The position numbers were made by a program, and so were the translations under genes. From NCBI GenBank assembly GCA_902500205.1, contig GCA_902500205.1_4868.1: 64,000 nucleotides of DNA. One strand, given 5' to 3'. The notes below the pieces were generated by a model that worked only from the letters and a program-made list of their open reading frames with translations, was not told where the DNA came from and did not search any database. Position 1 is the first letter of the stretch. Each line of letters opens with the position of its first letter. The DNA comes from Escherichia coli (GTDB taxonomy: Bacteria > Pseudomonadota > Gammaproteobacteria > Enterobacterales > Enterobacteriaceae). Below are positions 18,368 to 33,118 of the stretch, in pieces.

Positions 18368-19195
18368 ATGATCAACTATGCTAAGCCGTCAAACGAGTTG
18401 GTCTTTGACCTCATTAACCGGGATAACCCAAACCTACCTATTAAAGCGTCGCCGGCAAACTGCTACGTGGAGAAAGTGACACAGGTTCCCGTTAATGCAG
18501 CTTCCAACAACCGCAATACGTCGGCACGCTTGCGCGGTATTCAGGGTTCCGGATTTCGAGACGCAATCACCGTTTATTACGACCGTGTGAACTTAGCGCG
18601 GTTATTGCCGTGGGGTCCTTCTGTCCAGGCGCAGTTCGTCACGTTTGACGCTCCCAACCTCCACTCAGCCTTTTCGGTGCTCTTGGATACTTACGGAGTA
18701 AACTTCTCTGCAATCGATATCTATAACCTCCCACTGGCGGGCCCCAATACCCCAAATTACACCAATACACAGAACATCGTAGCGCTATCGACATCTCCGG
18801 CTTATATCGGTTCTGCGACGTTGCGTTATAACCGTGGTTTACCGGTACTAGACACTTCGGTGAAATCGGATGTCTTGAATGCGATTCAAGAGCCTATCTC
18901 GCCGTCTCTCGGTAAGAAGTGTATTGATTTGTTGACGTACGGTATTGACTTTACCGCGTATAAAAACCTACTGACAGTAGATGCTTCTGGCCTACCGCAG
19001 TGGGCTGGTTTGCGTAAGGTGTTGGATGACCTGGGTATTCCGAACTACGCGGGGCCACTGAACAGTAACACCGTTCAGGATGTGCCGACTTCCACCGCTC
19101 AGTTCGCTAACAAATCGTACGACCGCGTGGTTATCCAAACGGGCATCGATGAGGAAGGCGTGAAAGGCGTGGCGTACTACCACTATAACAGCTAA
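18368..19195 (+). CDS. family-A paralog 7 (275 aa)
   Basis: MINYAKPSNELVFDLINRDNPNL...NNRNTSARL...VYYDRVNLARLL; C-terminal ..YYHYNS. Confidence 0.65.
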   Translation: MINYAKPSNELVFDLINRDNPNLPIKASPANCYVEKVTQVPVNAASNNRNTSARLRGIQGSGFRDAITVYYDRVNLARLLPWGPSVQAQFVTFDAPNLHSAFSVLLDTYGVNFSAIDIYNLPLAGPNTPNYTNTQNIVALSTSPAYIGSATLRYNRGLPVLDTSVKSDVLNAIQEPISPSLGKKCIDLLTYGIDFTAYKNLLTVDASGLPQWAGLRKVLDDLGIPNYAGPLNSNTVQDVPTSTAQFANKSYDRVVIQTGIDEEGVKGVAYYHYNS

Positions 19196-19200
19196 GTGTA

Positions 19201-19226
19201 GGGGCTCTTCGGAGCCCCCTCTTTTG
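19201..19226 (+). terminator. intrinsic terminator (UUCG tetraloop, short T-run)
   Basis: GGGGCTC-TTCG-GAGCCCC followed by CTCTTTTGG. Confidence 0.5.
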
Positions 19227-19242
19227 GCGATGCGGAGTCCCT

Positions 19243-20655
19243 ATGCTATTTTACTCGAAGGAGTCGGCACTGCTTGTATACGACCAAGTCAATCGGGATA
19301 ACCCTGATTTAGTTGTTAAGCTGACGCCGGCTATCGCTGCTTTAACCGGCGGCCCAACTTCAGTTACGTTAAACCAACGTAACACCAAAGCTGTTTTCAC
19401 CGGGTATCCAGGGACAGGTGTACAAGGTAATGTTACCGTGTACTACGACCGGATTAACCTGGCCACTTTATTTAATTTTGTGCCGACTGTGGCTATCAAA
19501 GATACAGTCTTAACGGTACGAGACGCGCTACCTGCAATAAACGACGCATTGGGGCTTACATTAGTTGCTTCTGATTTGCAGTCACCTGACGCAAGTTTAC
19601 CTAAACCGAGCGCTTCGCCGCAGACGTTGAAATTAAATATCTCAGGTAATTGCCCTGCGTTTACAGGCAGCTTAACGATACGTTATACCGTCCCGAGCGG
19701 TGCAATTTACCCCGATTCTGGACCTGGCCCTAAAACGTTGCTGCAAGGTAACACTATCGCGGGTTATTTCGGAACAACCACAATTGCAGAGTTGTTTACA
19801 CACTCTCAACTTCTTAATGCCACTATATCGGCCGGTGCGTTACCACCGGTACATTCTGGTGCCGAAGGTTGGTACAAGTTCTTTTACCAGGGTAGGGTTA
19901 TTTACCTCCCGATCAGTCCTGTCGCTAGCTCCATCTCCTGGAATACGTTATATACAAACGGACTCGTTTACGGAACAGATGATAATGGTAAATACCCTGC
20001 GGCGACGCCCGTTAACCAGGGACGCATCATTAGCTTTACAGGCGCAGACAACAAAAGGTTTTACTTCCGCGTTCGTCTACCTAGTGCTGGGAAGGACCCA
20101 TACGTCAGCGGCACCCCAACTGCCGCTGAGTTAGCAGGTAGTGAGTTTGAGATGTTCAACTTTCTGTATAATGGAACGTGGGACAAACCGATTAACAGTT
20201 ACTGGACGCTGTTCTGTTTATTGAAAGATACACTGAAGACCAACGTCGCCTATCATCGCATGGCGACGTTGTCTGGAGCCAGTTGGACAAACTTAGGAAA
20301 ATCATCGAGCGCAGGCAACTACTACTGGTTCCCGGTGCTGGAGTTGGTGGATAAATCCACAGTTACCTTGGGTTTAGAAGATATCCATGGTGCGGTAGAT
20401 TACAGTCTCCAACCGTGCAGCGTGTCCGCAGAAAACACGTTTAGTCTCAAGCCGTTGGTGCTCGGTAATCCAGATACTACCGATTTCGAACCGGTAGTTG
20501 TTACTTCAGAAAACAGTTTCGCACTGCATCCGCCTGCTTTAATGCTGCCGAAGACAGTCGATTTCCAACCTATTGCGGCTACCGCTGAAATGTATACGCC
20601 CCCTGACAAGACAACGTTAACGTCTCTTAACGGTGAACTGGACGGCTTTAAGTAG
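19243..20655 (+). CDS. family-A N-terminal domain protein with extended C-terminal region, ends NGELDGFK (470 aa); cassette copy 1, gene a
   Basis: N-terminus MLFYSKESALLVYDQVNRDNPDL...NQRNTKAVF...VYYDRINLATLF; contains SGPGPKTLLQGN..GYFG; C-terminal SLNGELDGFK. Confidence 0.7.
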   Translation: MLFYSKESALLVYDQVNRDNPDLVVKLTPAIAALTGGPTSVTLNQRNTKAVFTGYPGTGVQGNVTVYYDRINLATLFNFVPTVAIKDTVLTVRDALPAINDALGLTLVASDLQSPDASLPKPSASPQTLKLNISGNCPAFTGSLTIRYTVPSGAIYPDSGPGPKTLLQGNTIAGYFGTTTIAELFTHSQLLNATISAGALPPVHSGAEGWYKFFYQGRVIYLPISPVASSISWNTLYTNGLVYGTDDNGKYPAATPVNQGRIISFTGADNKRFYFRVRLPSAGKDPYVSGTPTAAELAGSEFEMFNFLYNGTWDKPINSYWTLFCLLKDTLKTNVAYHRMATLSGASWTNLGKSSSAGNYYWFPVLELVDKSTVTLGLEDIHGAVDYSLQPCSVSAENTFSLKPLVLGNPDTTDFEPVVVTSENSFALHPPALMLPKTVDFQPIAATAEMYTPPDKTTLTSLNGELDGFK

Positions 20656-20666
20656 AGGTATCATCT

Positions 20667-21665
20667 ATGTCTTTTACTTTGCGTTGGAAAAATCCAAACG
20701 TAATCCCTACGGTAGTAAAAATCTACCGTGACGTTAAAGATATCACACCAAGCGCTTTGCCTGAACCGATTGCAACGCTCTCAAATGGCGAGACAGAATG
20801 GCGTGATGCCACCGCCAAACCAGGCGCAATCTATTATTACCTTCTAACGGTAACCGCCAACGGTAAAACAGTGGCATCGTCTAGCCAGAAATACACCATT
20901 GAGATAAAGCGTGGGATTGGCCCAATGACTATTCTAAACGGTAACGACCGTTTAGGGTTTATGGGTGCGGTTCCTTACGACGAACAATGGCTTCCGTCGC
21001 AAATGCCACCTGCATTTTTGGCGATGTTCCCTAATCTATTAACCGATCGTGTGGCGTTGTATAAATTTACCCGAAACGGGAAAATCTATTACATGCTATC
21101 TAATACGTCGCAGTTCCCGAATACGCCTGTGGACTGGGCTTCCCTCTATCAAGCCGGTTTAGTCTATGGTACAGGCGATGCTGGCCCAGAGAACGGCCAT
21201 GGAACGCTACCAGACACTCCACAAGACGCTAAGATAGTCCACAAAGGGGATACGTACATTATGCGGCTTCCTCGCGGCCTGACGATGTCTAGCGAGCCTC
21301 CTGCGTATCCTTTCGTAGCTGACTATAATGGGAAAACCCATGATGAAATCGCTTCTCTAACCAACCCGTGTGAGTATAACGATTTACTTTACACGATGGT
21401 TAACGAGGTGCCGTGGAAACAGCGTTGGGCTAACTGGGCAACGAACAGTTATACTTTTCTGGGGCAGGGTACTTTGGGAACCTTGGCAGCGTATTTCGGC
21501 GGTGGTGTTCTCTGTATGGAACACGACACCGCGGAAGACCGTGTGCTCCATCGTGGTATCTTTAACAATGCCGGTGGAACACCCGTATCAGCGATTCAGC
21601 GTATAAACTATTTATCACCCACCACGAAAGGGCGTTACTACCCTATCTTTGAACTGGTCGAGTAA
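20667..21665 (+). CDS. cassette copy 1, gene b (332 aa), structural-type protein
   Basis: Paralogous to 24121-25107 (shared IYRD..ITPSALPEP.ATL.NGETEW.D, GL.YG..GPGPE.GHG.LPD). Confidence 0.65.
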   Translation: MSFTLRWKNPNVIPTVVKIYRDVKDITPSALPEPIATLSNGETEWRDATAKPGAIYYYLLTVTANGKTVASSSQKYTIEIKRGIGPMTILNGNDRLGFMGAVPYDEQWLPSQMPPAFLAMFPNLLTDRVALYKFTRNGKIYYMLSNTSQFPNTPVDWASLYQAGLVYGTGDAGPENGHGTLPDTPQDAKIVHKGDTYIMRLPRGLTMSSEPPAYPFVADYNGKTHDEIASLTNPCEYNDLLYTMVNEVPWKQRWANWATNSYTFLGQGTLGTLAAYFGGGVLCMEHDTAEDRVLHRGIFNNAGGTPVSAIQRINYLSPTTKGRYYPIFELVE

Positions 21666-21674
21666 GGGGCAGTC

Positions 21675-22598
21675 ATGACTATACGGTTAAGCTGGCCGTC
21701 CCAAGCCAGCAAAGGTCTTACCGCGATTGAAATCTACCGCAAGGAAGGTTGGAACGCAACAATCGACGTTTACAATCCAGGCACACCCCACGCAACTTTA
21801 TCAGGCAACGCGGTAGAGTTCGTAGATAATATCGATACCCTGACGAAGAATACAACCTATCGTTATTGGGTAGCTGCTGTGAAGGACAGTGAACGACTTA
21901 TCGGCAATCCGATTACGCAAGGATTCTATCCGGACACCGGGCCGGGTCCGCAAACAATCCTGCGCGGTGACTGGGCTTCAGGTTATTTCGGTACAGTACC
22001 GAATACAGAGTTCTTTAATACTGCCGAGTTAAAACTCATGTTAACTGCGCAGCAGGGAAACATGTTTGTCTACGACCCTCAGGAATGGCACAAGTTTATT
22101 TTCCGTGGGAGAATTGTCTTCTTCCCAGCGACGATGCATTCGAAAACCAACTCGGTACAAATGGCGTATCAGTACGGTATGATGTACGGGACCGATGATG
22201 TCGGAAGTATTGTTCCGCAGGGAGCCACGGCGACTAAACAAGATTGTAAGGTCACGAAGGATGGTCGTACGTACCGTATCCGATTACCTTACGCAGTCCC
22301 GTACGACGCTGTTCTCTCAGGACAGGATTACAACAACGGTGAATGGCGAAACACAATGGGCCGTTTGTATCCTGTCGGTGCAGAGTTCGCAGCCCTCGGT
22401 CTTGGTGCGATTGACTCACTTGCAAGACAAGGCGCGACTGCGCAGCCGAATGAGTCAGGTGCCGCTGTATTAGCTCCTTTGTGGAGCAACAACATATTCG
22501 CTTATGCGTATGGCACCGTGCCTATGGGGATTAGTAACACCGCAGGTGTCGGGAACTCGGCCACGATATTCTTTGCTTTCGAATTAGTCTTACCGTAA
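21675..22598 (+). CDS. cassette copy 1, gene c (307 aa), structural-type protein
   Basis: Paralogous to 25110-26009 (IEIYRK.GWNATIDV..PGTP.ATL.G, TTYRYW.AAVKD.ER, TGPGPQ..L.GDW..GYFGTV, C-terminal ELVLP). Confidence 0.65.
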   Translation: MTIRLSWPSQASKGLTAIEIYRKEGWNATIDVYNPGTPHATLSGNAVEFVDNIDTLTKNTTYRYWVAAVKDSERLIGNPITQGFYPDTGPGPQTILRGDWASGYFGTVPNTEFFNTAELKLMLTAQQGNMFVYDPQEWHKFIFRGRIVFFPATMHSKTNSVQMAYQYGMMYGTDDVGSIVPQGATATKQDCKVTKDGRTYRIRLPYAVPYDAVLSGQDYNNGEWRNTMGRLYPVGAEFAALGLGAIDSLARQGATAQPNESGAAVLAPLWSNNIFAYAYGTVPMGISNTAGVGNSATIFFAFELVLP

Positions 22599-22611
22599 CG
22601 GAGTAAAAGCC

Positions 22612-24108
22612 ATGGGGTTGTATACAGAACCTTCAATGGAACTGCTCTGCCAACAAATTGTGCGTGACAATCCCGGTTTAGCAGGAAAAATCACCGCTGA
22701 CTCCGTTGGGGTCAGGGGTGTTCCTGTTGCGAGAAACGTTAACGGACGAAACACACAGATTACGTTGGTAGGAAAACCTGGTAAAGGATTTGCTGGGGAA
22801 ATAACGGTATATTACGACCGGTTGAATCTGGCCAGTCTGTTCAAGTCTGGCCCGAATATGGTGAGTATTCCACGTAGCGCACAAACCCATGCGGAAGCGT
22901 TACCGGCGTTCAATGAATTGAACGGGTTGAACTTAACCGCGAGTGACATCACCAGTCCAAACGTTGCATTAATGAAATACGCTACGCCGGAAACTATAAC
23001 TCTGACGGCGCACGCTAACTCCTTGTGCTATACCGGGTCATGCAAGATGACCTATGTTTACGAACCGATTGCGATGTATCCGAAGTCGGGCCCTGGGCCA
23101 AAAGGATTAATGGCCGGTAATGAGTTATACGGATTCTTTGGGCTGGTAAGCGCGGAAGAGTTATTCACATCTGATGAAATGGTGTATGCCCTCTATAACG
23201 GCACCAACTGGCCTAACCGCTACGCTATCAAGTGGCTCAAATTCTTTCTGAATGGGGCGGTAGTGTTTGTTCCGACCCGTGCGATTTGCAACGTTACCTG
23301 GGCAGACCTGTACAACAAGGGTGCAATATTTGATTCCGGAGACGCAGGACCTCGCCCGAAGTCGACTTACACACCTGTCGATGTTGAACAGTTGAAATAC
23401 ATGGTAAAACGGGATGATGAAGGAACGCATTATTTCAGAATGTCTATCCCGTATTACACCGAGAACGCCGCCGCGCCTGATTGGAGTAAACCGCCGTCAA
23501 TCACCTCTATCCTGTCACTGACCAGCAAATTGGGGTCGGTGAACGTATATGGGGAATGGGGAACTCTTAGCACGACTGATGCTAACTTCCTGGATTCCGT
23601 GTGGTTACGACACCAGTTCGGTGCCGACCAAGCGTATTACCAGTCTATCAGTGGGAGCTATCGTTCATACACCTACATCTACACCTCTTCTGGCTTTTGG
23701 CCAATCCTGGAGATGTTTGATGTTGCCAATGAACCTGTGCCGTTGATTGACGAAGGTGCAGAACTAACATGGGCACCGTCCGTGGTTACTCTGACGGACA
23801 TCGACCAAAATGAATCGCTTCGTGTGGTGCCTATTACGGAAACCTCCGCTGCAGCGAATCCACGTCCGTTAGTTTTCAACACCGACAACACCGAAACTGC
23901 CACCCCTGCCTGGGTGCGGGAAGCGTCATCAGACTCACCACGTCCTCTGCTTGCCACGACGGACAATGATGAACGTGCATATTCCGTCGCGGTAACAGGC
24001 ATGGCTAGCGTTAAGATTAGACCGATTATTCTCACGACTGACCAAATCGCCCAACCTTCAAAAATTACTCTGGGCGATACTAACGGTGAGTTGGATGGAT
24101 TCCAATAA
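22612..24108 (+). CDS. family-A N-terminal domain protein with extended C-terminal region, ends NGELDGFQ (498 aa); cassette copy 2, gene a
   Basis: N-terminus MGLYTEPSMELLCQQIVRDNPGL...NGRNTQITL...VYYDRLNLASLF; contains SGPGPKGLMAGNELYGFFG; C-terminal TNGELDGFQ. Confidence 0.7.
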   Translation: MGLYTEPSMELLCQQIVRDNPGLAGKITADSVGVRGVPVARNVNGRNTQITLVGKPGKGFAGEITVYYDRLNLASLFKSGPNMVSIPRSAQTHAEALPAFNELNGLNLTASDITSPNVALMKYATPETITLTAHANSLCYTGSCKMTYVYEPIAMYPKSGPGPKGLMAGNELYGFFGLVSAEELFTSDEMVYALYNGTNWPNRYAIKWLKFFLNGAVVFVPTRAICNVTWADLYNKGAIFDSGDAGPRPKSTYTPVDVEQLKYMVKRDDEGTHYFRMSIPYYTENAAAPDWSKPPSITSILSLTSKLGSVNVYGEWGTLSTTDANFLDSVWLRHQFGADQAYYQSISGSYRSYTYIYTSSGFWPILEMFDVANEPVPLIDEGAELTWAPSVVTLTDIDQNESLRVVPITETSAAANPRPLVFNTDNTETATPAWVREASSDSPRPLLATTDNDERAYSVAVTGMASVKIRPIILTTDQIAQPSKITLGDTNGELDGFQ

Positions 24109-24120
24109 GAGGTAACGACA

Positions 24121-25107
24121 ATGGCTTTTACAATTCGTTGGACGAACAATAACCCTGGGGCTTCGACCGTGAAGCTGTACCGCGACACCAAACCTCTGGT
24201 GCGTACGGCATTACCTGAACCTCTGGCAACGTTCACTAACGGGGAAACTGAGTATACTGACCGAACAGCGATACTGGGGACAACGTATTACTACATGACC
24301 ACTGTGACAGTGGGAAGCCGAACACTGTTCAGTCCGCAGAAATCAATTCTGATTCAGAACCGTCGCGGTATCGGCATCGTGACTCCACAGTACGGTGATG
24401 ACCGCTTTGCGTATTACGGGTATGTGGCGTACGGTGAATTGCCTAGCGCGGCTGATTATCCGCCAGGGTTTGTGGCCATTTCTGGATATGACCCAACTGT
24501 TAAGCCGGGCTTGATTAAGTTCCAGCTAGACGGTAAAATTCTGTATCTGTTTAGTGGTCTTCGTGTGAACGGCAACACGCTGTATAGCCGTGATGCGATT
24601 TATAACGCGGGTTTGCTGTACGGTGTGGAGGGACCTGGTCCGGAAGGCGGTCATGGTGATTTACCTGACGTTGACCAGGCTGGGGAGTTTACGTGGTTGG
24701 GTGACCGCTATCGGATGCGCCTGCTGCGCGGGTTAACGCTCGACAGTGAAAGCCCGGTCATGACACTCGACGCACAGTGGAACGGTAAACTCCATGACGC
24801 GTCACCGTATACTGCCGATAGCGAATACAACCGACTCATCTATGGGATAAGTAGCTGGTTCCCAGAAAAGAAAAAAGTGATGTCCCTGATAAAGTGGTCG
24901 AACACCAGCATATTCGGAAGTGGATCGCTGGTGGCAGGCCGTGGGGCGCATTGTCAGGAGTTTGACCCAGACAGTAAGTTGGGGCTGACGCGCGGATGGG
25001 CGGCGGCGGATTCCACTGATACCGTGGATAACCTCCAGCGTATACAACATGTCCCTGCGACCGTGGGCGGTATTTGGATTCCAGTAATCGAGCTTATCGA
25101 GGATTAA
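24121..25107 (+). CDS. cassette copy 2, gene b (328 aa)
   Basis: Paralog of 20667-21665. Confidence 0.65.
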   Translation: MAFTIRWTNNNPGASTVKLYRDTKPLVRTALPEPLATFTNGETEYTDRTAILGTTYYYMTTVTVGSRTLFSPQKSILIQNRRGIGIVTPQYGDDRFAYYGYVAYGELPSAADYPPGFVAISGYDPTVKPGLIKFQLDGKILYLFSGLRVNGNTLYSRDAIYNAGLLYGVEGPGPEGGHGDLPDVDQAGEFTWLGDRYRMRLLRGLTLDSESPVMTLDAQWNGKLHDASPYTADSEYNRLIYGISSWFPEKKKVMSLIKWSNTSIFGSGSLVAGRGAHCQEFDPDSKLGLTRGWAAADSTDTVDNLQRIQHVPATVGGIWIPVIELIED

Positions 25108-25109
25108 TC

Positions 25110-26009
25110 ATGCCTATTACATTAAACTTTGCACAACGGAAGCCACAGGCGCTCGATAACATTGAAATCTATCGCAAGACGCCGGGCAACGCCACCATTG
25201 ATGTTAATGCACCGGGAACGCCTCTGGCAACCCTTCCGGGTGACGCTACATCGTACGAAGACAACGCTGTGGAAAACAACACCACTTACCGTTATTGGAT
25301 AGCTGCGGTTAAAGACGGTGAGCGTGTCTTCAACACCCCTACCGCCCAAGGGTTCTTTTTAGACACCGGGCCTGGCCCCCAGAAACTGTTATACGGCGAC
25401 TGGCACGCCGGATACTTTGGAACAGTAACGCCAGCAGAGTTATTCACTAACGCGGAACTGAACAGCCTCGTGGTGAATATGTTCAGTTCCGCCGTTGGTG
25501 CCTGGCATAAGTTCATTTACAAAAACCGTATTCTGTTTATGTCCGATAACTCGATAATATACGCTAGCCCGCAGTTCATTTATAACCAGGGGCTGATGTA
25601 CGGCCAGGATGGCAACGGATATGTGCCGAGCTGGGCTAGTGCACGTAACCAACGCCGCACGGTGACGAAAAACGGTTACGAATACGTGGTGCGCTTGCCG
25701 TATTTGTTCGACTACAAATACTGGACGTCTTTCGTTGGAAGCGGTAACACCGAGTTGTATCTCGACGGTGAGTGGTTTAACACCTTCGCGCGCCTGTACA
25801 ACTACAGTGGGCAGTTTCCGCGCTTTGACGACATTCCGGTCGGTCCAATCGATTCGGTTACTGCCCAACAATCTGCATTCTTTGCGGCTATGAATAACTT
25901 GTCCGCTCAGTGGTACAACCGTCCACCCTACCCAGAGTCGCCGTCATGGGGTAACTACGGTACCGATACAATACGCTCTATTGCGGTACTTGAACTCGTT
26001 CTGCCTTAA
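25110..26009 (+). CDS. cassette copy 2, gene c (299 aa)
   Basis: ATG 25110 (MPITLNF..) chosen over the upstream in-frame start; paralog of 21675-22598. Confidence 0.6.
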   Translation: MPITLNFAQRKPQALDNIEIYRKTPGNATIDVNAPGTPLATLPGDATSYEDNAVENNTTYRYWIAAVKDGERVFNTPTAQGFFLDTGPGPQKLLYGDWHAGYFGTVTPAELFTNAELNSLVVNMFSSAVGAWHKFIYKNRILFMSDNSIIYASPQFIYNQGLMYGQDGNGYVPSWASARNQRRTVTKNGYEYVVRLPYLFDYKYWTSFVGSGNTELYLDGEWFNTFARLYNYSGQFPRFDDIPVGPIDSVTAQQSAFFAAMNNLSAQWYNRPPYPESPSWGNYGTDTIRSIAVLELVLP

Positions 26010-26029
26010 CAGGAGACTTCATGGGATTG

Positions 26030-26065
26030 TATAGCGCACTTTACCATAACAGCTAAAAATAGGCC
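26030..26065 (+). pseudogene. 11-codon remnant resembling a collapsed family-A gene (MGLYSALYHNS)
   Basis: AGGAG RBS plus ATGGGATTGTAT.. similar to the start of gene 22612 (ATGGGGTTGTATAC..); ending ..LYHNS resembles family C-termini (..YHYNS, ..LHYNN). Confidence 0.3.
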
Positions 26066-26088
26066 CTTCGGGGCCTATTTTCTTTTTT
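26056..26088 (+). terminator. intrinsic terminator (UUCG tetraloop)
   Basis: AATAGGCCC-TTCG-GGGCCTATT followed by TTCTTTTTT. Confidence 0.75.
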
Positions 26089-26099
26089 AGGACGTTGCA

Positions 26100-27419
26100 A
26101 TGATCAACTATAACAAACCTGTCATGCAACTGGTTTGGGATCAGATTAATCGTGATAACCCGCAGCTCAAGAAACCGCTCAACGCAACCAACGTGGCGTT
26201 ATTACAAGGTCCTTTAACCAATGCCTTGCGCGATGGTCGCAACAGCCGTATCGTGGTAAACGGATTACAGGGTGGTGGTTACAGCGGTAAGATGGACATC
26301 TACTACGACCGCTTAAACCTTTCGCAGTATTTTAAAGGCGTCAGCGTACCGGTTAAAGTACCTTATCGGGCGACGGTCTACCGCGACATCATCGATCGGA
26401 TTTCCGCAGCTTGTGGGTTGGTGCTTACTGCTGACGATTTAACGTATCCTGACAGCCAGTTTGCAATGATCACTGTGGCAACGGGCGATCGGACGGTGGC
26501 GATTAAATCGGATAACCCCGCATTCACGGGTTATATTCCTATTAGCTTTATTCGTGAAGAGCCCAGCTTTGCCGACTTGTACCACACCACCGAAACCGGA
26601 GCTTGGGAACCCATGGATGTTTACAGCACGGTCTATCGACTCGACTGGAGCATGTACACTCAACAGATAATCAATATCCCAATGGGTACCCCGCTGCGAC
26701 TAAACAGTAACTCGTACATGACCCAGTTCATCGCGGCGCTGTCGGCATGGTCGGGCATCCCGTTCACTATCGGTAATGCTGCTACTGATAACCCGTATGA
26801 CCTCTATGGGTATGTCGCTACACGCAATAACAACCCAGGCTTAGACCCTGATATGCGTGGGGAGTACAAATACTGCGTGAAGTTGACGCCACCTGAGGAT
26901 ATGGGTAATCTCCGCCGTCCGTTCTTCTTGCACTTTGGTCCGAAAAATAACGTGGCCTATTTGGCGCAGGAAGAGGACGTCGAGCGTTATGCGCGTTACA
27001 TGAGTTTCCGGGAAACCAGCCCAAATTCGATGAGCGTCACGTTGTATCAAAACGAGTACGTGTTGACTCGGGCAGAATCGCCTGAAACAGCGGATGATTT
27101 AACGGGTTCCCCGTATGGCACTCGATACTGTACCGGGAGTATTCGACGGCTGATGCAACACGCGTTTCCGACCGAAGAGATGTTCCAAGAAAGTATTGCT
27201 AACCGACGTCGGGTACTGTACCACACTGCTTACACCACCACGACATCAGCTATTACTTACCAGGGATTATACCGTAACGGATACCAATCCAAACAAATGA
27301 CGAGCCTCTACTCGAATTACTGTAACTATTTCATCTATTACGACCCAAGCAAAGGCGGCTATATGGTCTACAGTCCATATAGCAAAACCGCCCCGGTCCC
27401 TTGGTATCCACCGCTATAG
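26100..27419 (+). CDS. family-A N-terminal domain protein, 439 aa, C-terminal SKTAPVPW motif
   Basis: N-terminus MINYNKPVMQLVWDQINRDNPQL...DGRNSRIVV...IYYDRLNLSQYF; C-terminus YSPYSKTAPVPWYPPL related to next gene. Confidence 0.65.
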   Translation: MINYNKPVMQLVWDQINRDNPQLKKPLNATNVALLQGPLTNALRDGRNSRIVVNGLQGGGYSGKMDIYYDRLNLSQYFKGVSVPVKVPYRATVYRDIIDRISAACGLVLTADDLTYPDSQFAMITVATGDRTVAIKSDNPAFTGYIPISFIREEPSFADLYHTTETGAWEPMDVYSTVYRLDWSMYTQQIINIPMGTPLRLNSNSYMTQFIAALSAWSGIPFTIGNAATDNPYDLYGYVATRNNNPGLDPDMRGEYKYCVKLTPPEDMGNLRRPFFLHFGPKNNVAYLAQEEDVERYARYMSFRETSPNSMSVTLYQNEYVLTRAESPETADDLTGSPYGTRYCTGSIRRLMQHAFPTEEMFQESIANRRRVLYHTAYTTTTSAITYQGLYRNGYQSKQMTSLYSNYCNYFIYYDPSKGGYMVYSPYSKTAPVPWYPPL

Positions 27420-27433
27420 ACTAAGGTGCCACC

Positions 27434-29611
27434 ATGTCCTACACTCCTGATTTAGTGGCGACCGTGATTCGGTCGCTCAACCGTAAAAACGCGGTCGCCA
27501 GAGCAGTAGACCCCGCTAACGTACGCCTGGTGTCCGTGGCGCATCGTGACGAAAAAACCCTAGACGTCACACTGACAGGGGGTCCGGGGTATTCTAGTTA
27601 CGGTCAAATTACGGCCCAGGTCACGAAGCAAAATATTGCTGATTATTTCGCTAAGGTTAAGTTGGATGCCATTCCCACTTGTGCGTCCATCCACGAACTG
27701 TTGCCACATTTAGACACTCTACTAGGGATTACCTTTTTAACCGACGACTTTGAAGACCTGCCCATCACTTGGACAAACAATGCTGCGCGCATCACGTTCC
27801 AGGCGAAACAGACAAGTCTTATCTGGTACGGCAGCCAAACGCTAGATGTGATAAACGGTGACGTGGATATCAACACTGTCTACACTGTTACCAATATCAT
27901 TTTCACGCTAAAGGCTGCGAATAAACAGCAGTGGATTAACTTCTACTCTAATGCAGCCAAACGGATCGTGGATCTTGATAAAGTCGATGTCAGCGCCCCG
28001 ATGTCCCCGGAGGATATAGGCCAAACCTCTGCGTATAACAGCGTCGTAGCTTTGACCGCTAGACCGGGGAGCGGGATGTTTGGAACGAAGTATGTGTTCT
28101 TCTCACGTAACAAACTCGAGACATATGCAGGCAAAACCACATACGTCCCGGACGATTTCACCGGTAGCCTGCATGATGCTCTGGCCATCGAGACACTCGG
28201 CATTCGGAGTGTTTTTGATGTAAACGAAATTGCTCCTGTAGAGAACCTGACAGGCGAGTGGCCGAGACAAGTGCAATTGGCACCCGTAGAGGGTTCGTAC
28301 AAAGTCATGGGCAGCGCCACGTTGAATGTGGCACGCTATCAAGATAACGAGCAAACCCTTAACCTGAACTACACAACTACGTCGCAACTTTCGGACAGCT
28401 ACTGGGCCACAACGTTGATCAACCATGCGGCCTGCGGGCGTTTGTTTGTTAACGTGACCGTAGATGCGGGGGCTTTCGTTTATCGCGACAGCAACCTGAA
28501 ACCGACGTTCGTTATCGACGAATTGCCGCAAATTGGCGAGGTGGTTTGGAACTTCGTTAACCGGGGAACCATTCTTGGTCGTGGTGGTTCGGGTGTGGTC
28601 TACTCTATGCCTGCGAACACATCAGCGGACGGAGCTGACGCAATCCACATTAGCGATACCTTCCGTGGCAAAGTCACCATCGAAAACTACGGCACCATCG
28701 CCGGTGGTGGGGGTGGGGGCGACTACTATGCGTTTAGCACCACCAAGATCGGTGGAGCTGGTGGTGCGCCTCTCGGGCCAGGCGCGGCGGTGCCCAGCGA
28801 CACCAATAACCGTAACGGCTTAGCTGGGTCCCGTGACAAAGGCGGTGCTACCCAGTTAGTCGTCGCGCAATTTACCGGCTACCAGAGTCGCTACTATGGC
28901 GGTCCGGGTGGGGATTGGGGCCAGCCGGGACGTTATACAGCGTTCGAGCAATGGAACACCCCGGCTACCGGCTCGCCGGTCTATGTCTACGGTCGTGAAG
29001 ACGGGATGTCATGGACTCGCCCTGGGATGGCAGGCGAAGCCGTCGGTGGGAATAAAAGTATCGTCAACTGGGTATCCGTCGGAACGGTGAAACCGAATGT
29101 CACCGACGAGTACCAAGAGTTCCTCGACTACCTCGCAGATTTAGATGCCAACCGACTGGCTAGTGCGGATGGGATAGATAAAGTCACCGACCCAACCAAA
29201 CCTGTAGTTGTGGAGTTCTTAGGTACGATTATTTCAGGTACGCTGTTCAAAAAGCAAAACATACCCGGCGGTTTGGTGGGAACACCATACGGCGATGCTG
29301 TAGCCAACTTACCAGCCACCACATTGTTTGGTATCATGGCACACTGTGTATCGGAGTTTGATATTGTGCACGACACTTGGCGTTACAACCGCGCGGTAAT
29401 GTTCACGCTAAAACCCGCACCTACCGGGGCGATTAGCCTCGCTGTGGAACGCAACCGGGTGAAATCGGCTACCAGTAGTGCACCGGTGGAGAAGTTCTAC
29501 GTCGATCGCTTCGTGTATTACGATGCGTATCTCGGTAAAATGATGGAATGTAATCCGTATACCAAATCTGCCCCTAAACCGTGGGTGCGGCCAACGATAC
29601 CGTTATCGTAA
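27434..29611 (+). CDS. family-A-related large protein, 725 aa, Gly-rich internal segment, C-terminal TKSAPKPW motif
   Basis: Weaker N-terminal family resemblance; internal GGGGGGDYYAFSTTKIGGAGGAPLGPGAAVP; C-terminus NPYTKSAPKPWVRP parallels the preceding gene. Confidence 0.65.
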   Translation: MSYTPDLVATVIRSLNRKNAVARAVDPANVRLVSVAHRDEKTLDVTLTGGPGYSSYGQITAQVTKQNIADYFAKVKLDAIPTCASIHELLPHLDTLLGITFLTDDFEDLPITWTNNAARITFQAKQTSLIWYGSQTLDVINGDVDINTVYTVTNIIFTLKAANKQQWINFYSNAAKRIVDLDKVDVSAPMSPEDIGQTSAYNSVVALTARPGSGMFGTKYVFFSRNKLETYAGKTTYVPDDFTGSLHDALAIETLGIRSVFDVNEIAPVENLTGEWPRQVQLAPVEGSYKVMGSATLNVARYQDNEQTLNLNYTTTSQLSDSYWATTLINHAACGRLFVNVTVDAGAFVYRDSNLKPTFVIDELPQIGEVVWNFVNRGTILGRGGSGVVYSMPANTSADGADAIHISDTFRGKVTIENYGTIAGGGGGGDYYAFSTTKIGGAGGAPLGPGAAVPSDTNNRNGLAGSRDKGGATQLVVAQFTGYQSRYYGGPGGDWGQPGRYTAFEQWNTPATGSPVYVYGREDGMSWTRPGMAGEAVGGNKSIVNWVSVGTVKPNVTDEYQEFLDYLADLDANRLASADGIDKVTDPTKPVVVEFLGTIISGTLFKKQNIPGGLVGTPYGDAVANLPATTLFGIMAHCVSEFDIVHDTWRYNRAVMFTLKPAPTGAISLAVERNRVKSATSSAPVEKFYVDRFVYYDAYLGKMMECNPYTKSAPKPWVRPTIPLS

Positions 29612-30307: not shown

Positions 30308-30379
30308 AACAGAATTGGTTTGCTGCCTTAATGAAAGCTATCTGGCGCGCCCTTGTTTTTGCCGCAAGGAGAAAACGTA

Positions 30380-30532
30380 ATGACCCACCGTCCAACTCCG
30401 CCTAAGTTCCCCGAAGTACAAACCGTTCCGGAAACGTATTACGATTCTGGGTTCTTCAAACTATTACGCGCGATCTTCTGTCGGAGGGTAAAACCATGCA
30501 ATACGACAACGACGACTGGCCGAAAGGCTTAA
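30380..30532 (+). CDS. possible small lysis-associated protein (50 aa)
   Basis: ATG 7 nt after AAGGAGAAAAC; Pro-rich N-terminus, poly-Thr tail. Below ORF-track size cutoff. Confidence 0.25.
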   Translation: MTHRPTPPKFPEVQTVPETYYDSGFFKLLRAIFCRRVKPCNTTTTTGRKA

Positions 30533-30588
30533 TGCCCATTTTACTGGGATTAATGGTCCTCACGATGCTCGTGCGTTATATGACGTGA
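30496..30588 (+). CDS. possible small membrane protein (30 aa; holin/spanin-like candidate)
   Basis: ATG 7 nt after GGAGGG; single TM-like segment GLMPILLGLMVLTMLV; overlaps previous small ORF in another frame. Confidence 0.25.
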   Translation: MQYDNDDWPKGLMPILLGLMVLTMLVRYMT

Positions 30589-31842: not shown

Positions 31843-31888
31843 CCCTTACCCACTCCCGTAAGGGGAGTGGGTAAGCATTATTTATTTT
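31843..31888. terminator. bidirectional intrinsic terminator
   Basis: CTTACCCACTCCC-GTAA-GGGGAGTGGGTAAG flanked by A-run upstream and T-run downstream; sits between converging plus and minus genes. Confidence 0.7.
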
Positions 31889-32369
31889 CTTCTAACGGAA
31901 CAATCGTAATCGGAGTAGGAACTTCACCGATAAACCCGCTGCTGCAGCGAAAGAATGTCATCCCTTTACCTTCGCCGGTATACGGGTTCACATCCGAAAA
32001 AGAGTAAGTGGGGCTATCGTTTACGGTTTTATTAATACGGTAATAACGCTCACCTGTGGTGGTGTTAACATTCCCGTCGATTTTGCCAATTGTATCTTTA
32101 AACATCATCGGTGACTCTAGTTTGCCACCGTCCCACGTTGCTACCCAGTTTGCACCCACATCCATTACTGTTACTGACCGCGGCATCATCTGTAGATTGT
32201 CCAGAACCGGACGGTAGTCTACAAACTTCTCCTGTGTCCCTGTGCATGTATAAATCACCAAGTCGTGATTCTTTACCGGTGTGCTGCTAAATTGTCCGAT
32301 GTTGCTTGGTGACTGGACGCAACCGGTCAACAGGCTTATAAACGCGAATACGATAAATAGACGTTTCAT
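31878..32369 (-). CDS. predicted lipoprotein (163 aa)
   Basis: N-terminus MKRLFIVFAFISLLTGCVQ: positively charged start, hydrophobic core and L-T-G-C lipobox; isolated minus-strand gene between plus-strand units. Confidence 0.6.
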   Translation of the reverse strand: MKRLFIVFAFISLLTGCVQSPSNIGQFSSTPVKNHDLVIYTCTGTQEKFVDYRPVLDNLQMMPRSVTVMDVGANWVATWDGGKLESPMMFKDTIGKIDGNVNTTTGERYYRINKTVNDSPTYSFSDVNPYTGEGKGMTFFRCSSGFIGEVPTPITIVPLEENK

Positions 32370-32492
32370 AAGGTACCTTTCAGTGTTAAAAAAATTTCTC
32401 GTTTAACGGCCAACTTTACTGTCATATTAAGCCCGCTATGTGGTTTTTGGAATGTTTAGTATGCACCGTTCGCCTACTACGAGGAAACAACC

Positions 32493-33041
32493 ATGGCAGT
32501 TATCTCTGCAAAAGACCAACTCGTCGCGCTGTTTAATGCTGCAAACAGCGGGCTGTCCAGTCCGTTAACTTCTGCTGACGTTACATTCGGCGCTGTTGCT
32601 GACTATTCACCAGCTGATTCTGGAGACACTCGCAACTCCAAACTTACCATCACCGCCACTGCGGAATCCGCTAACTTTACTGGCGAGAAAGAGCTGCATT
32701 ATACCCGTCTCAATTCATTGAACATCATCGGTGCGAAAGCAGTGACCGCTGACCAGGCAGAATGGGATACCGATGATGAAGTGCTTGCTTTTGTCAACGC
32801 AGATCTAATTGCCGCCGGTAAAACGGAAGATGCGTTTGCATTGTCTGAACTCACCATTACACGCGAGGACGGCAGCAGTGGTGAGAAAATCATCACTGTT
32901 AAGGTGAAAGAAGGCCACATTAAATACCAACCTGCCAGCCTTGCTGTTTATACAGTAACGCAGCCAATCGTTAAAACCGACCTGAGCACCACCAATGGTG
33001 AACTGGACGGATTCGACGGCAAAGGTCACGCTGTCATGTAA
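32493..33041 (+). CDS. short family-A-like protein ending TTNGELDGFDGKGHAVM (182 aa)
   Basis: N-terminal pattern (..DQLVALFNAAN...GDTRNSKLTI...HYTRLNSLNII) and C-terminal NGELDGF motif link it to the 13-29 kb array. Confidence 0.6.
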   Translation: MAVISAKDQLVALFNAANSGLSSPLTSADVTFGAVADYSPADSGDTRNSKLTITATAESANFTGEKELHYTRLNSLNIIGAKAVTADQAEWDTDDEVLAFVNADLIAAGKTEDAFALSELTITREDGSSGEKIITVKVKEGHIKYQPASLAVYTVTQPIVKTDLSTTNGELDGFDGKGHAVM

Positions 33042-33077
33042 CAGAGCAATTAGTAGTTTCTAAGAAATAAATAAAAG

Positions 33078-33118
33078 GTACCTACCTCCCTTCGGGGAGG
33101 TAGGGCCTTTATTTTCTT
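33078..33118. terminator. bidirectional intrinsic terminator (UUCG tetraloop)
   Basis: CCTACCTCCC-TTCG-GGGAGGTAGG with A-run upstream and T-run downstream; ends both the plus gene and the minus-strand operon. Confidence 0.75.

What the first reader, a model, noticed from the sequence alone, without database searches (positions are those of the whole stretch)
31843..33118. Strand-switch island with a lipoprotein gene and an orphan family-A gene between two bidirectional terminators
Between two bidirectional terminators lie a minus-strand gene for a lipoprotein (MKRLFIVFAFISLLTGCVQ, LTGC lipobox) and a plus-strand short family-A-like gene ending NGELDGFDGKGHAVM. Phage-encoded lipoproteins in such insulated positions are often superinfection-exclusion or receptor-masking factors (as with T5 Llp or the Cor proteins). 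The displaced family-A member suggests the array was split by insertion of the lipoprotein gene or that the member was transposed.
Basis: partly seen in the sequence, partly recalled or inferred. Interest (0 to 1): 0.55.

Follow-up and report, generated by a model that had tools for sequence, protein, structure and literature searches.

The report
Jumbo-phage lipoprotein beside abundant fibre-protein gene
In this SPN3US-like giant Salmonella phage, two back-to-back single-gene units encode an already known, very abundant virion protein and an uncharacterised outer-membrane lipoprotein that always sits among host-recognition genes and may block the phage's receptor, though this is untested.

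Summary
The window is an SPN3US-like (Seoulvirus) jumbo phage.

**Anatomy**
- Two strong hairpins, 31845-31875 and 33081-33104, have T-runs on both strands.
- They enclose a minus-strand 163-aa lipoprotein gene (SPN3US gp159 orthologue) and a plus-strand 182-aa gene (gp160 orthologue).

**The 182-aa gene is not a displaced remnant**
- It belongs to DUF7941, which is SPN3US "paralog family B".
- SPN3US gp160 is among that phage's most abundant virion proteins (>300 copies).
- The divergent lipoprotein/gp160 pair recurs in every one of the more than 20 related Salmonella, E. coli, Proteus and Erwinia jumbo-phage genomes listed in both searches (six examined in detail).
- In the relatives compared, each gene has a conserved TATG motif, which is the phiKZ late-promoter consensus, and nearly always its own terminator.

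**The lipoprotein**
- It belongs to a small family found only in chimalliviruses.
- A lipobox matches in 16 of 17 members, and all have two conserved mature cysteines.
- The predicted fold is a small beta-barrel with no Pfam match.
- It shows no similarity to T5 Llp beyond the signal peptide.
- Its gene always lies among fibre or DUF7941 genes. In Goslar it directly follows the tail fibre and its chaperone.
- It is absent from SPN3US virions but abundant in Goslar virion preparations.
- It is missing from Cronobacter phage CR5.

A receptor-masking or exclusion role is the best guess (about 0.4) and remains unproven.

The parts
31845..31875 (.). Bidirectional intrinsic-terminator-like hairpin between the convergent M15-like peptidase gene (+) and the lipoprotein gene (-).
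   Evidence: 13-bp stem with T-rich tails on both strands. z = -6.0 and -5.1. A strong hairpin with a T-run follows the lipoprotein stop in all 6 phages checked, with different stem sequences.
31878..32369 (-). Gene for a 163-aa lipoprotein, the orthologue of SPN3US gp159. The mature part is a predicted small beta-barrel of about 145 aa with two conserved cysteines.
   Evidence: ORF. 93% identical to SPN3US gp159. Matches phrog_9559 only. dN/dS 0.14. AF2 model pLDDT 80.5, pTM 0.70, strands over residues 27-144. C42 and C142 are invariant.
32319..32369 (-). Signal peptide and lipobox (MKRLFIVFAFISLL-TGC). Cys17 is the predicted lipidated first residue of the mature protein, and +2 is Val.
   Evidence: The PROSITE-like lipobox rule is met in 16 of 17 family members, and none has Asp at +2.
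32421..32426 (-). Conserved TATGAC (read on the minus strand), a candidate phiKZ-type late promoter and start site for the lipoprotein gene. The predicted +1 G is at 32423, giving a 54-nt leader.
   Evidence: GTCATA is invariant in 7 phages in a region of 59% mean identity. TATG is the phiKZ nvRNAP late-promoter consensus, with G as +1 (PMC4666361).
32460..32463 (+). Conserved TATG, a candidate late promoter and start site for the 182-aa gene. The predicted +1 G is at 32463, giving a 30-nt leader with a GAGGAAA ribosome-binding site.
   Evidence: TATG lies 30-35 nt upstream of the start codon in 7 of 7 phages aligned. Consensus from PMC4666361.
32493..33041 (+). Gene for a 182-aa short DUF7941 protein, the orthologue of SPN3US gp160 (paralog family B, a highly abundant virion protein). 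It has the N-terminal DUF7941 subdomain and a C-terminal VKTDLSTTNGELDGF motif.
   Evidence: Pfam PF25613 at 41.7 bits, above the cut-off of 27, over residues 5-101. phrog_4862 at E = 1.9e-75. 98.3% identical to SPN3US gp160 over 174 aa. Abundance data from PMC5694885 and PMC10052503. C-terminal motif shared with the ORFs at 19243-20655 and 22612-24108.
33081..33104 (.). Bidirectional intrinsic-terminator-like hairpin between the convergent 182-aa gene (+) and the DUF4376 gene (-).
   Evidence: 10-bp GC-rich stem and TTCG loop, with an A-run upstream and a T-run downstream. z = -6.2 and -6.0. An equivalent hairpin with a T-run follows the gp160-like gene in 5 of 6 phages checked.

Best explanation
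The island is two back-to-back monocistronic transcription units of an SPN3US-like, nucleus-forming jumbo phage. Each unit probably runs from its own phiKZ-type late promoter (TATG, start sites about 40 bp apart) to an intrinsic terminator shared with the convergent neighbour.

**Plus-strand unit.** It makes the gp160 orthologue, a short DUF7941 protein. In SPN3US this protein is present at several hundred copies per particle. It is analogous to the short, very abundant DUF7941 protein gp23 of phage Goslar, which is proposed to polymerise head-to-tail into host-recognition filaments.

**Minus-strand unit.** It makes the gp159 orthologue.
- Shown from sequence: the protein is a Sec/LspA-type lipoprotein precursor.
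- Inferred: after lipidation at Cys17, the Lol pathway sends it to the inner face of the outer membrane, because +2 is Val and not Asp. There its disulfide-closed small beta-barrel binds a conserved envelope component.
- Most likely mechanism (inferred from gene context only): it occupies or alters the phage's cell-surface receptor late in infection. Superinfecting phages, and above all newly released progeny, are then not wasted on infected cells and lysis debris. This is the role established for T5 Llp, but performed here by an unrelated protein family.

The identities of the genes and signals are near-certain (at least 0.9). The receptor-masking function is a best guess.
For: **Identity**
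- The window is 92-94% identical to Seoulvirus genomes. Annotation and synteny match SPN3US gp155-gp163.

**gp160 side**
- DUF7941 match.
- More than 300 copies per capsid, paralog family B (PMC5694885).
- About 583 spectra in wild type and 509 in tailless particles.
- Goslar short DUF7941 gp23 is at about 2140 copies, and Goslar gp22 forms filaments (preprint 10.64898/2026.04.21.720040).

**Transcription units**
- TATG is conserved on both strands in 7 phages, and TATG is the phiKZ late consensus.
- Terminators follow both genes in the relatives.

**Lipoprotein**
- Lipobox in 16 of 17 members, none with Asp at +2, and exactly two mature cysteines in all.
- Beta-barrel model with pLDDT 80.5.
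- Non-virion in SPN3US.
- Accessory gene: absent from CR5 and from several Erwinia phages that keep gp160.
- It is the fastest-evolving gene of its neighbourhood, with dN 0.035 and dS 0.26.
- The family is restricted to chimalliviruses: 13 clusters among 1.84 billion representatives.
- The gene always lies among host-recognition genes. It follows tail fibre + Caudo_TAP in Goslar and L004, and tail fibre + DUF4376 in L006. It lies between DUF7941 genes in L008, and at the end of a DUF7941 array in L007, ChrisDB and Huxley.
- T5 llp has the same divergent arrangement with the receptor-binding gene oad.
- The phage carries a Gp38-type adhesin, a DUF7941-GP38 fusion at 27434-29611. This suggests an outer-membrane protein receptor that a lipoprotein could mask.
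Against: - No phenotype is known for any family member.
- There is no sequence or structural similarity to Llp. No match to any Cor-annotated PHROG or to any Pfam family was found.
- The conserved TATG implies late expression, whereas classical exclusion genes such as T5 llp are early.
- The SPN3US receptor is reported to be the flagellum (PMC11428620), which an inner-leaflet lipoprotein cannot mask directly.
- The family is conserved at 30-60% identity in phages of Salmonella, E. coli and Erwinia that carry different receptor-binding proteins. The Gp38-like adhesin domain is essentially confined to Seoulvirus, with only weak partial matches (25-28% identity) in Phobos and CR5, neither of which appeared among the lipoprotein matches. 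This fits a conserved envelope target better than a strain-specific receptor.
- In Goslar the homologue gp088 co-purifies with virions at about 740 copy-equivalents. This is unexpected for a pure host-envelope factor, unless membrane debris contaminates that preparation. PhuZ and chimallin do contaminate it.
Confidence: 0.4

Rival explanations
1. The lipoprotein is physically associated with the virion or with the DUF7941 filament network. It could bind the fibres, or anchor them or progeny particles to membrane. It is co-regulated with the abundant short DUF7941 gene because the two proteins work together.
For: - Goslar gp088, the family member, is among the most abundant unmodelled proteins in CsCl-purified virions: about 740 copy-equivalents at 77.8% coverage.
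- The divergent gene pair with a shared promoter region is conserved across several genera.
- Both genes carry late-type TATG motifs.
Against: - SPN3US gp159 gave only 3 spectra in one of three wild-type replicates and is classed non-virion, while gp160 gave about 583.
- A Sec-exported lipoprotein is on the other side of the inner membrane from cytoplasmic virion assembly.
- The Goslar preparation also contains PhuZ and chimallin at 100-200 copy-equivalents, so abundant late non-virion proteins do carry over.
- CR5 keeps gp160 without the lipoprotein.
Confidence: 0.2
2. The lipoprotein is a lysis-cassette component: an atypical outer-membrane spanin subunit, or another factor that weakens or regulates the outer membrane or cell wall at lysis.
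For: - It is an outer-membrane-type lipoprotein with a late-type promoter motif.
- In the window, SPAsTU, Wellington, Asesino and L007 the gene lies within one to three genes of the endolysin, DUF1353 and M15-like peptidase genes.
Against: - There is no adjacent, overlapping or embedded inner-membrane spanin partner. The gene is monocistronic on the opposite strand.
- It has no C-terminal transmembrane segment, so it is not a unimolecular spanin.
- The mature part is a folded barrel of about 125 aa, not a short proline-rich segment.
- In Goslar the gene is far from the endolysin gp024 and follows the tail fibre instead.
- The gene is absent from CR5 and from several Erwinia relatives, which must still lyse their hosts.
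Confidence: 0.12
3. The lipoprotein is a periplasmic inhibitor of a peptidoglycan hydrolase (functionally like T4 Spackle or MliC/PliC), or a lipocalin-like binder of a lipid or envelope ligand (like Blc or YceI).
For: - The fold is a small closed beta-barrel.
- A weak BFVD hit to an RB49 "LprI-like lysozyme inhibitor" protein.
- The gene lies near two muralytic-type genes.
Against: - No Pfam hit to MliC or any other family, for any of the 17 members.
- The family's conserved residues (R108, Y110, R111, G132, G134) are not the MliC/PliC motifs as I recall them. This was not tested formally.
Confidence: 0.12
4. One reading: the 182-aa gene is a family member recently displaced from the array, either because the lipoprotein gene was inserted or because the member was transposed.
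For: - The gene belongs to the same DUF7941 family as the array at 13118-29611.
- Gene order around the pair differs between genera, through inversions, so rearrangements did occur at some point.
- The lipoprotein gene is present or absent among relatives.
Against: - Five genes separate it from the array.
- It is a distinct, conserved orthologue group kept as a divergent pair with the lipoprotein gene, with gp160 protein identity down to about 45%.
- It has its own conserved promoter motif and terminator.
- It is the most abundant family member in the virion.
- It remains in place where the lipoprotein gene is absent, as in CR5.
Confidence: 0.05

Closest known systems
Salmonella phage SPN3US gp160 (SPN3US_0160), "paralog family B" = Pfam DUF7941 (PF25613)
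   Same: - 98.3% identical over 174 aa and at the same genomic position.
- DUF7941 N-terminal subdomain.
- Known highly abundant virion protein at more than 300 copies.
   Different: - The window's copy has an 8-residue C-terminal extension (DGKGHAVM) after the conserved NGELDGF motif.
- The location of family B proteins is disputed. SPN3US proteomics places them on the head, because they persist in tailless particles. The Goslar preprint proposes baseplate-anchored filaments.
Phage Goslar gp23 (short DUF7941 protein, about 2140 copies per virion)
   Same: - Similar size (180 aa), with a DUF7941 N-terminal domain and no C-terminal globular domain.
- Very abundant in the virion.
- Its gene is also a single plus-strand unit in a strand-switch position next to an endolysin gene and a terminator.
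   Different: - Only the N-terminal ~70 residues align, and weakly (hhalign probability 63%, E = 7e-5; BLASTP finds nothing).
- It is an analogue, not a demonstrable orthologue.
- It lacks the NGELDGF tail.
Phage T5 Llp (lytic conversion lipoprotein; blocks FhuA)
   Same: - A phage-encoded outer-membrane lipoprotein that is not part of the virion.
- Its gene is transcribed divergently from a host-recognition gene across a short shared promoter region (T5 oad/llp).
   Different: - Llp is 77 aa and the window protein is 163 aa.
- The only alignable part is the signal peptide.
- T5 llp is an early gene (established knowledge), whereas this gene carries a late-type motif.
- The target here is unknown.
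Cor-type superinfection-exclusion lipoproteins of T1, phi80 and N15-like phages; F-plasmid TraT
   Same: Small outer-membrane lipoproteins encoded next to tail-fibre genes (Cor), or masking an outer-membrane protein receptor (TraT/OmpA). This is from general knowledge. Goslar gp088 occupies exactly the "after tail fibre and chaperone" slot.
   Different: No match to any Pfam or PHROG family other than phrog_9559, which has unknown function. No functional data.
Phage Goslar gp088 (YP_009820773.1)
   Same: - Family member at 31% identity, with lipobox LGGC and the same two conserved cysteines.
- Unknown function.
   Different: - It is co-directional with the tail fibre gp090 and chaperone gp089 and lies immediately downstream of them, rather than being divergent from a short DUF7941 gene.
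- It is reported among the abundant proteins of purified virions, unlike SPN3US gp159.

Membership tests
Bacterial lipoprotein precursors (Lgt/LspA substrates) | Lipobox [LVI][ASTVI][GAS]C at the end of an N-terminal signal peptide with a basic n-region and a hydrophobic h-region (PROSITE PS51257-type rule). | tested here: met
   The signal is MKRLFIVFAFISLLTGC, with Cys17, two basic residues in the n-region and h-region mean hydropathy of 3.1. The rule is met in 16 of 17 family members, and the 17th has LIAC after a short signal peptide.
Bacterial lipoprotein precursors (Lgt/LspA substrates) | Actual diacylglyceryl modification, signal peptidase II cleavage and outer-membrane sorting. | not testable with these tools
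   Indirect evidence only. No member has Asp at +2. In the Goslar peptide list, the peptide after the lipobox Cys was not found, although 77.8% of the protein was covered. That file was truncated when stored.
T5 Llp family | Sequence homology of the mature protein to Llp. | tested here: not met
   hhalign of the family profile against T5 Llp aligns only residues 1-17, the signal peptide, at probability 36%. A profile search of PDB sequences does not retrieve Llp even at E <= 10.
T5 Llp family | Structural similarity to Llp (PDB 8a60_B, 7qjf_A). | tested here: not met
T5 Llp family | Binds and inactivates the phage's own outer-membrane receptor. | not testable with these tools
   This needs adsorption, plating-efficiency and binding experiments.
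Cor / other catalogued phage exclusion or defence proteins | Match to a curated family model. | tested here: not met
   Pfam gave 0 families, NCBIfam 0 and PADLOC 0. PHROGs matched only phrog_9559, which has unknown function.
Two-component spanin, outer-membrane subunit (o-spanin) | A lipoprotein gene adjacent to, overlapping or embedded in an i-spanin gene (type II membrane protein), in the lysis cassette and on the same strand. | tested here: not met
   The gene is a monocistronic unit on the opposite strand, between a terminator and a divergent promoter region. No neighbouring ORF encodes an N-terminal transmembrane segment followed by a long periplasmic domain.
Unimolecular spanin (T1 gp11 type) | N-terminal lipobox plus a C-terminal transmembrane segment. 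| tested here: not met
   The C-terminus ...GEVPTPITIVPLEENK is polar and is modelled as disordered.
MliC/PliC lysozyme inhibitors | Match to the MliC family model and its conserved loop motifs. | tested here: not met
DUF7941 (PF25613) / SPN3US paralog family B (the 182-aa protein) | Score above the Pfam gathering threshold. | tested here: met
   41.7 bits against a cut-off of 27, at E = 1.3e-10. Residues 5-101 match profile positions 7-101 of 276. The match therefore covers only the N-terminal subdomain.
DUF7941 (PF25613) / SPN3US paralog family B (the 182-aa protein) | Orthology to SPN3US gp160 (sequence and synteny). | tested here: met
   98.3% identity over 174 aa at the syntenic position between gp159 and gp161.
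DUF7941 (PF25613) / SPN3US paralog family B (the 182-aa protein) | Head-to-tail polymerisation into filaments. | not testable with these tools
   This has been shown only for Goslar gp22 by negative stain and predicted for gp23. No multimer prediction was available here.
Intrinsic (factor-independent) terminators | GC-rich stem-loop followed by a U-run on the transcribed strand. | tested here: met
   Both hairpins meet this on both strands. Their positions are conserved in relatives. Termination by the phage RNA polymerases was not testable.
phiKZ-type late (nvRNAP) promoters | 5'-TATG-3' with G as +1. | tested here: inconclusive
   TATG is present and conserved upstream of both genes in 7 phages, and the consensus is documented. 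However, TATG is necessary but not sufficient in phiKZ, and no 5'-end data exist for this phage.

The most novel reading that the evidence does not exclude
The lipoprotein is not merely an Llp analogue. It would be a partner of the DUF7941 filament system that is specific to nucleus-forming jumbo phages. In this reading it is exported to the outer membrane late in infection and binds the phage's own filament or adhesin proteins, or the envelope component they recognise. This would explain three observations: the gene is locked in a divergent pair with the most abundant DUF7941 gene, it tracks fibre genes in every lineage, and its product co-purifies with Goslar virions at hundreds of copies. 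Such a protein would control whether progeny stick to, or are released from, the debris of their own host.
Probability: 0.12. Interest if true: 0.7.

Novelty: new member of a known kind. Interest (0 to 1): 0.4.

Why it matters
- Nucleus-forming jumbo phages (Chimalliviridae) are studied intensively for therapy and for their cell biology. Their interplay with the host envelope, including receptors, superinfection exclusion and release, is almost unknown.
- This work separates a solved part from an open one.
  - Solved: the "orphan" gene encodes the known abundant virion protein gp160.
  - Open: a small, well-delimited lipoprotein family specific to chimalliviruses, with a confident predicted fold. 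Its genes are tied to host-recognition genes.
- The proteomic data conflict: the lipoprotein is non-virion in SPN3US but abundant in Goslar preparations.
- If it is an exclusion or progeny-protection factor, it would be the first described for this phage family. It could also point to the still undefined cell-surface receptor.
- The analysis highlights a second contradiction, over whether DUF7941 proteins sit on the head or on the baseplate. The tailless-mutant data bear directly on that.

Tried and rejected
- **First structure prediction.** The model from a 6-sequence alignment was unusable (pLDDT 40). It was rescued by adding distant members from the exhaustive search (17 sequences, pLDDT 80.5).
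- **afdb50 fold library.** Not available.
- **P0018.** This 5404-aa hit from the exhaustive profile search is a eukaryote-like FN3-repeat protein. A local hmmsearch with the family profile finds no domain in it, so it was rejected as spurious.
- **"DUF2846" annotation.** One Erwinia phage homologue carries this label. No Pfam match for any of the 17 members supports it.
- **Co-occurrence with the Gp38-type adhesin.** This was tested and rejected. The adhesin domain of the 27434-29611 protein is essentially confined to Seoulvirus, with only weak partial matches in Phobos and CR5. The lipoprotein family also occurs in Erwinia and Goslar-like phages.
- **Sigma-70 promoters.** None were found in 29.5-35 kb. 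This is expected for a phage that uses its own RNA polymerases.
- **dN/dS.** It gave no sign of positive selection on the lipoprotein gene (0.14).
- **Host outer-membrane contamination in the Goslar preparation.** It could not be assessed. Only phage proteins are quantified in the held part of Table S4.
- **SPN3US infection time-course proteome.** Weintraub et al. 2019 (PMC6384053) is not held.
Full report
**What the window is.** The region 31700-33200 matches 34 phage records at 91-98% nucleotide identity. Twenty-three of these are full-length matches at 91.5-94.2%; the rest are fragmented matches to SPFM records. All are about 240-kb Seoulvirus-type jumbo phages: SPN3US, SEGD1, EC001, the SPFM series and Proteus phage 7. 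Gene order matches SPN3US gp138-gp171. These are nucleus-forming Chimalliviridae, which transcribe with their own RNA polymerases. Consistent with that, no sigma-70-like promoter is found in 29.5-35 kb, against 7.3 expected from shuffles.

**Checking the observation.**
- Hairpin 31845-31875 has a 13-bp stem. Hairpin 33081-33104 has a 10-bp stem and a TTCG loop.
- Both have T-rich tails on both strands and fold far better than shuffled sequence, with z between -5.1 and -6.2 on either strand.
- Between them lie a 163-aa minus-strand ORF (31878-32369) starting MKRLFIVFAFISLLTGC, and a 182-aa plus-strand ORF (32493-33041) ending NGELDGFDGKGHAVM.
- Against SPN3US, both evolve under purifying selection, with dN/dS of 0.14 and 0.06.
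- The hairpins lie between convergent genes: M15-like peptidase against lipoprotein, and the 182-aa gene against the DUF4376 gene. Their bidirectionality is what such junctions normally show.

**The 182-aa gene.**
- The 182-aa protein shares the family's N-terminal region. It also shares a C-terminal motif, T.L...NGELDGF, with exactly two members, the ORFs at 19243-20655 and 22612-24108.
- Pfam identifies the family as DUF7941. The 182-aa protein scores 41.7 bits against a cut-off of 27, covering only the N-terminal subdomain. The 725-aa last array member is a DUF7941-GP38 adhesin fusion.
- The 182-aa protein is 98.3% identical to SPN3US gp160.
- The literature already describes gp160. It belongs to "paralog family B" and is one of the most abundant virion proteins, with more than 300 copies estimated (PMC5694885).
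- A deeper dataset gives about 583 spectra in wild-type particles and about 509 in tailless particles, and classes it as "Head" (PMC10052503 supplement).
- A 2026 preprint on phage Goslar shows that DUF7941 proteins are specific to chimalliviruses and that gp22 forms filaments in vitro. It reports the short member gp23, which has the N-terminal domain and linker only, at about 2140 copies. It proposes a baseplate-anchored "fibre cloud" for host recognition.
- The window's protein resembles gp23 in architecture, but aligns with it only weakly and only at the N-terminus.
- So the gene is a known, highly expressed structural gene and not an orphan. Whether its product sits on the head (SPN3US tailless-mutant data) or at the baseplate (Goslar model) is unresolved in the literature.

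**Conservation of the gene pair.**
- Protein-level searches of the phage collection place the lipoprotein gene and the gp160-like gene next to each other. They are divergent and about 123-150 bp apart in every genome listed in both searches. These include Seoulvirus, SPAsTU, Asesino/phiEaH2/Stratton, Machinavirus (Huxley, ChrisDB, Machina), Wellington/Kwan and several pEa_SNUABM phages. Identity to the window protein falls to about 44-50% for the lipoprotein and about 45% for gp160.
- The surroundings are rearranged. In ChrisDB and Huxley the lipoprotein gene abuts the end of the DUF7941 array. In Wellington the gp160-like gene converges on the array. In the window, SPAsTU and Wellington the lysis genes precede the pair.
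- Cronobacter phage CR5 retains gp160 with no lipoprotein gene. The lipoprotein search found no Cronobacter record and seven fewer Erwinia records than the gp160 search.
- The pair therefore moves as a unit, gp160 is the constant member, and the lipoprotein gene is accessory. This contradicts the idea that a lipoprotein insertion displaced an array member.

**Transcription signals.**
- Aligning the divergent spacer from seven phages gives 59% mean identity. It reveals an invariant GTCATA, which reads TATGAC on the lipoprotein strand, about 54 nt upstream of the lipoprotein start. It also reveals a TATG 30-35 nt upstream of the gp160 start in all seven.
- 5'-TATG-3' with G as +1 is the experimentally defined late-promoter consensus of the phiKZ non-virion RNA polymerase. 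It is necessary but not sufficient (PMC4666361).
- Goslar gp23 and gp088 also have a TATG at comparable distances.
- A different, longer motif, CAGATAnATnTTA...GTGAG, precedes five non-structural genes elsewhere in the window and is absent here. It is probably the early class.
- A GC-rich hairpin with a T-run follows the lipoprotein gene in 6 of 6 phages and the gp160-like gene in 5 of 6. The stem sequences differ between genera.
- Inference: these are two back-to-back, monocistronic, probably late units, with predicted start sites at 32423 (-) and 32463 (+).

**The lipoprotein protein.**
- It matches no Pfam, NCBIfam or PADLOC model, and only phrog_9559, which has unknown function.
- An indexed search found only SPN3US-like and Erwinia jumbo-phage proteins.
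- An exhaustive profile search of 1.84 billion representatives found 13 clusters, one of them spurious.
- Sixteen of 17 aligned members match the lipobox rule, and the 17th has LIAC after a short signal peptide. None has Asp at +2. All have exactly two further cysteines, C42 and C142, which are invariant.
- With the 17-sequence alignment, AlphaFold2 gives a confident model (pLDDT 80.5, pTM 0.70) of an all-beta domain spanning residues 27-144, with a disordered tail. C42 lies in the first long strand and C142 in the last. A barrel-closing disulfide is therefore plausible, but this is an inference, because no distance was measured.
- Foldseek against the PDB finds nothing at E <= 0.001.
- BFVD returns the protein's own family, which UniProt labels "Lipoprotein" in the Kwan and Huxley entries, plus weak hits.
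- T5 Llp is in the PDB. It aligns with the family only over the signal peptide and is not among the structural hits.

**Genomic context of the family.** Seven further lineages, beyond the SPN3US-like and Erwinia phages, were examined.
- Goslar and a Goslar-like contig have the order short DUF7941 (gp091), tail fibre (gp090, with Phage_tail_fib and a C-terminal glycine-rich domain), fibre chaperone (gp089, Caudo_TAP), lipoprotein (gp088), gp087, then a DUF7941-glycosidase-like protein (gp086).
- L006 has tail fibre, a DUF4376 protein and then the lipoprotein.
- In L008 the lipoprotein gene lies between two large DUF7941 genes.
- L007 has a DUF7941 array, then the lipoprotein gene, followed on the opposite strand by the M15-like and DUF1353 genes.
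- In L005 the lipoprotein gene follows a 1375-aa protein with no Pfam match.
- The constant feature is therefore the host-recognition module, not the lysis genes.
- T5 offers a close anatomical parallel. Its llp gene is divergent from the receptor-binding gene oad across about 80 bp.

**Proteomic evidence.**
- In SPN3US, gp159 gave 3 spectra in one of three wild-type replicates and none in tailless particles. It is classed non-virion and is absent from the earlier virion tables.
- In Goslar, gp088 is the fourth most abundant unmodelled protein of CsCl-purified virions, at about 740 copy-equivalents and 77.8% coverage.
- The peptide immediately after the lipobox cysteine was not found, although the next tryptic peptide was. 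This is consistent with a processed, lipidated N-terminus, but the stored file is truncated.
- The same preparation contains PhuZ and chimallin at 100-200 copy-equivalents, and its authors say large assemblies co-purify. Carry-over on membrane debris is therefore possible but not shown.

**Mechanism.**
- Shown: gene identities, family membership of the 182-aa protein, the lipoprotein signal, the predicted fold class, the conserved pairing and context, the motifs and hairpins, and the non-virion status in SPN3US.
- Inferred: late transcription by the phage non-virion polymerase, outer-membrane localisation, and a disulfide-closed barrel.
- Best functional guess (about 0.4): a late-made outer-membrane lipoprotein that masks or alters the cell-surface receptor. 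This would limit superinfection and, above all, loss of progeny on debris. It would be functionally Llp-like but from an unrelated family.
- Points against this guess:
  - Late rather than early expression.
  - The flagellar primary receptor reported for SPN3US (PMC11428620).
  - Conservation across phages with different adhesins.
  - The Goslar virion data.
- Rivals:
  - True association with virions or DUF7941 filaments (0.2).
  - A lysis role (0.12). This is weakened by the lack of an i-spanin partner, the folded barrel, the Goslar context and the gene's dispensability in CR5.
  - A hydrolase-inhibitor or ligand-binding barrel (0.12).

**Verdict.**
- The "orphan or displaced gene" interpretation is rejected.
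- The "exclusion lipoprotein" interpretation remains a reasonable but untested hypothesis, now backed by conserved context rather than by homology.
- The gp160 half is already known. The lipoprotein half is an uncharacterised, chimallivirus-restricted family, most simply filed as a new family within the known kind [quoted passage not shown].

Noticed in passing
window 31845-31875 and 33081-33104, compared with L001 (SPN3US): Both terminator hairpins differ from their SPN3US counterparts only by a reverse-complement flip of the loop (GTAAG versus CTTAC, and TTCG versus CGAA). The stems are identical. This looks like loop inversion at palindromes.
   Followed up: partly
window 60058-60459 (+), with upstream region 59954-60057: This is the only other lipobox-containing ORF in the window: 133 aa, MTIKKFLQTVVVLAACG, phrog_9424 of unknown function, no Pfam match. 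It is preceded by the early-type motif CAGATATATATTAC. As an early-expressed putative lipoprotein, it is an alternative candidate for superinfection exclusion.
   Followed up: partly
window, upstream of the genes starting at 7245, 11785, 56306, 60058 and 61831: A recurrent extended motif, (T)CAGATA(T/G)AT(A/G)TTA...(A/G)GTGAG, lies in intergenic regions before non-structural genes. It is probably the early (virion RNA polymerase) promoter class of this phage.
   Followed up: no
window 19243-22598 and 22612-26009: A three-gene cassette is duplicated in tandem inside the array. Each copy has a 470-aa or 498-aa DUF7941 protein ending in NGELDGF, followed by two proteins of about 310-330 aa with FN3-like N-termini. 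The NGELDGF tail occurs only in these two proteins and in the 182-aa protein.
   Followed up: partly
window 27434-29611 (+): The last array member (725 aa, SPN3US gp155 orthologue) fuses a DUF7941 N-terminus to a T-even Gp38-type glycine-rich adhesin domain (E = 1.5e-18). It is a likely receptor-binding protein. The adhesin part is essentially confined to Seoulvirus, with only weak partial matches in Phobos and CR5.
   Followed up: partly
window 30353-30588 (+): Between the GH108 endolysin gene and the DUF1353 gene lie small overlapping ORFs. One is a 30-aa ORF with a single hydrophobic segment (MQYDNDDWPKGLMPILLGLMVLTMLVRYMT). Similar 30-44-aa ORFs follow the endolysin gene in SPAsTU, Asesino, ChrisDB, Huxley and Wellington. 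It may be a lysis-related membrane peptide.
   Followed up: no
phage records LR535903-LR535908, LR535911-LR535913 and LR535917 (SPFM5-10, 12, 14, 15, 20): These SPFM genomes match the region only as 14-19 short pieces at about 97% identity. Their predicted lipoprotein and gp160 homologues are fragmented. This suggests local sequence-quality problems or scrambling in those records.
   Followed up: no
literature on SPN3US and Goslar; window 13118-29611 and 32493-33041: Published data conflict on where DUF7941 / paralog family B proteins sit. In SPN3US they persist at equal levels in tailless particles and are classed "Head". The Goslar preprint proposes baseplate-anchored filaments. The text of PMC5694885 lists gp161 as a family B member where its tables list gp160.
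   Followed up: partly
L014 (SPAsTU) 3093-4764; L011 (ChrisDB) 3107-4187: Some relatives carry one to three extra genes of about 170-180 aa immediately downstream of the gp160-like gene. tblastn reports 2-3 gp160-like places per record. The short DUF7941 gene therefore appears to be tandemly amplified in some lineages.
   Followed up: no
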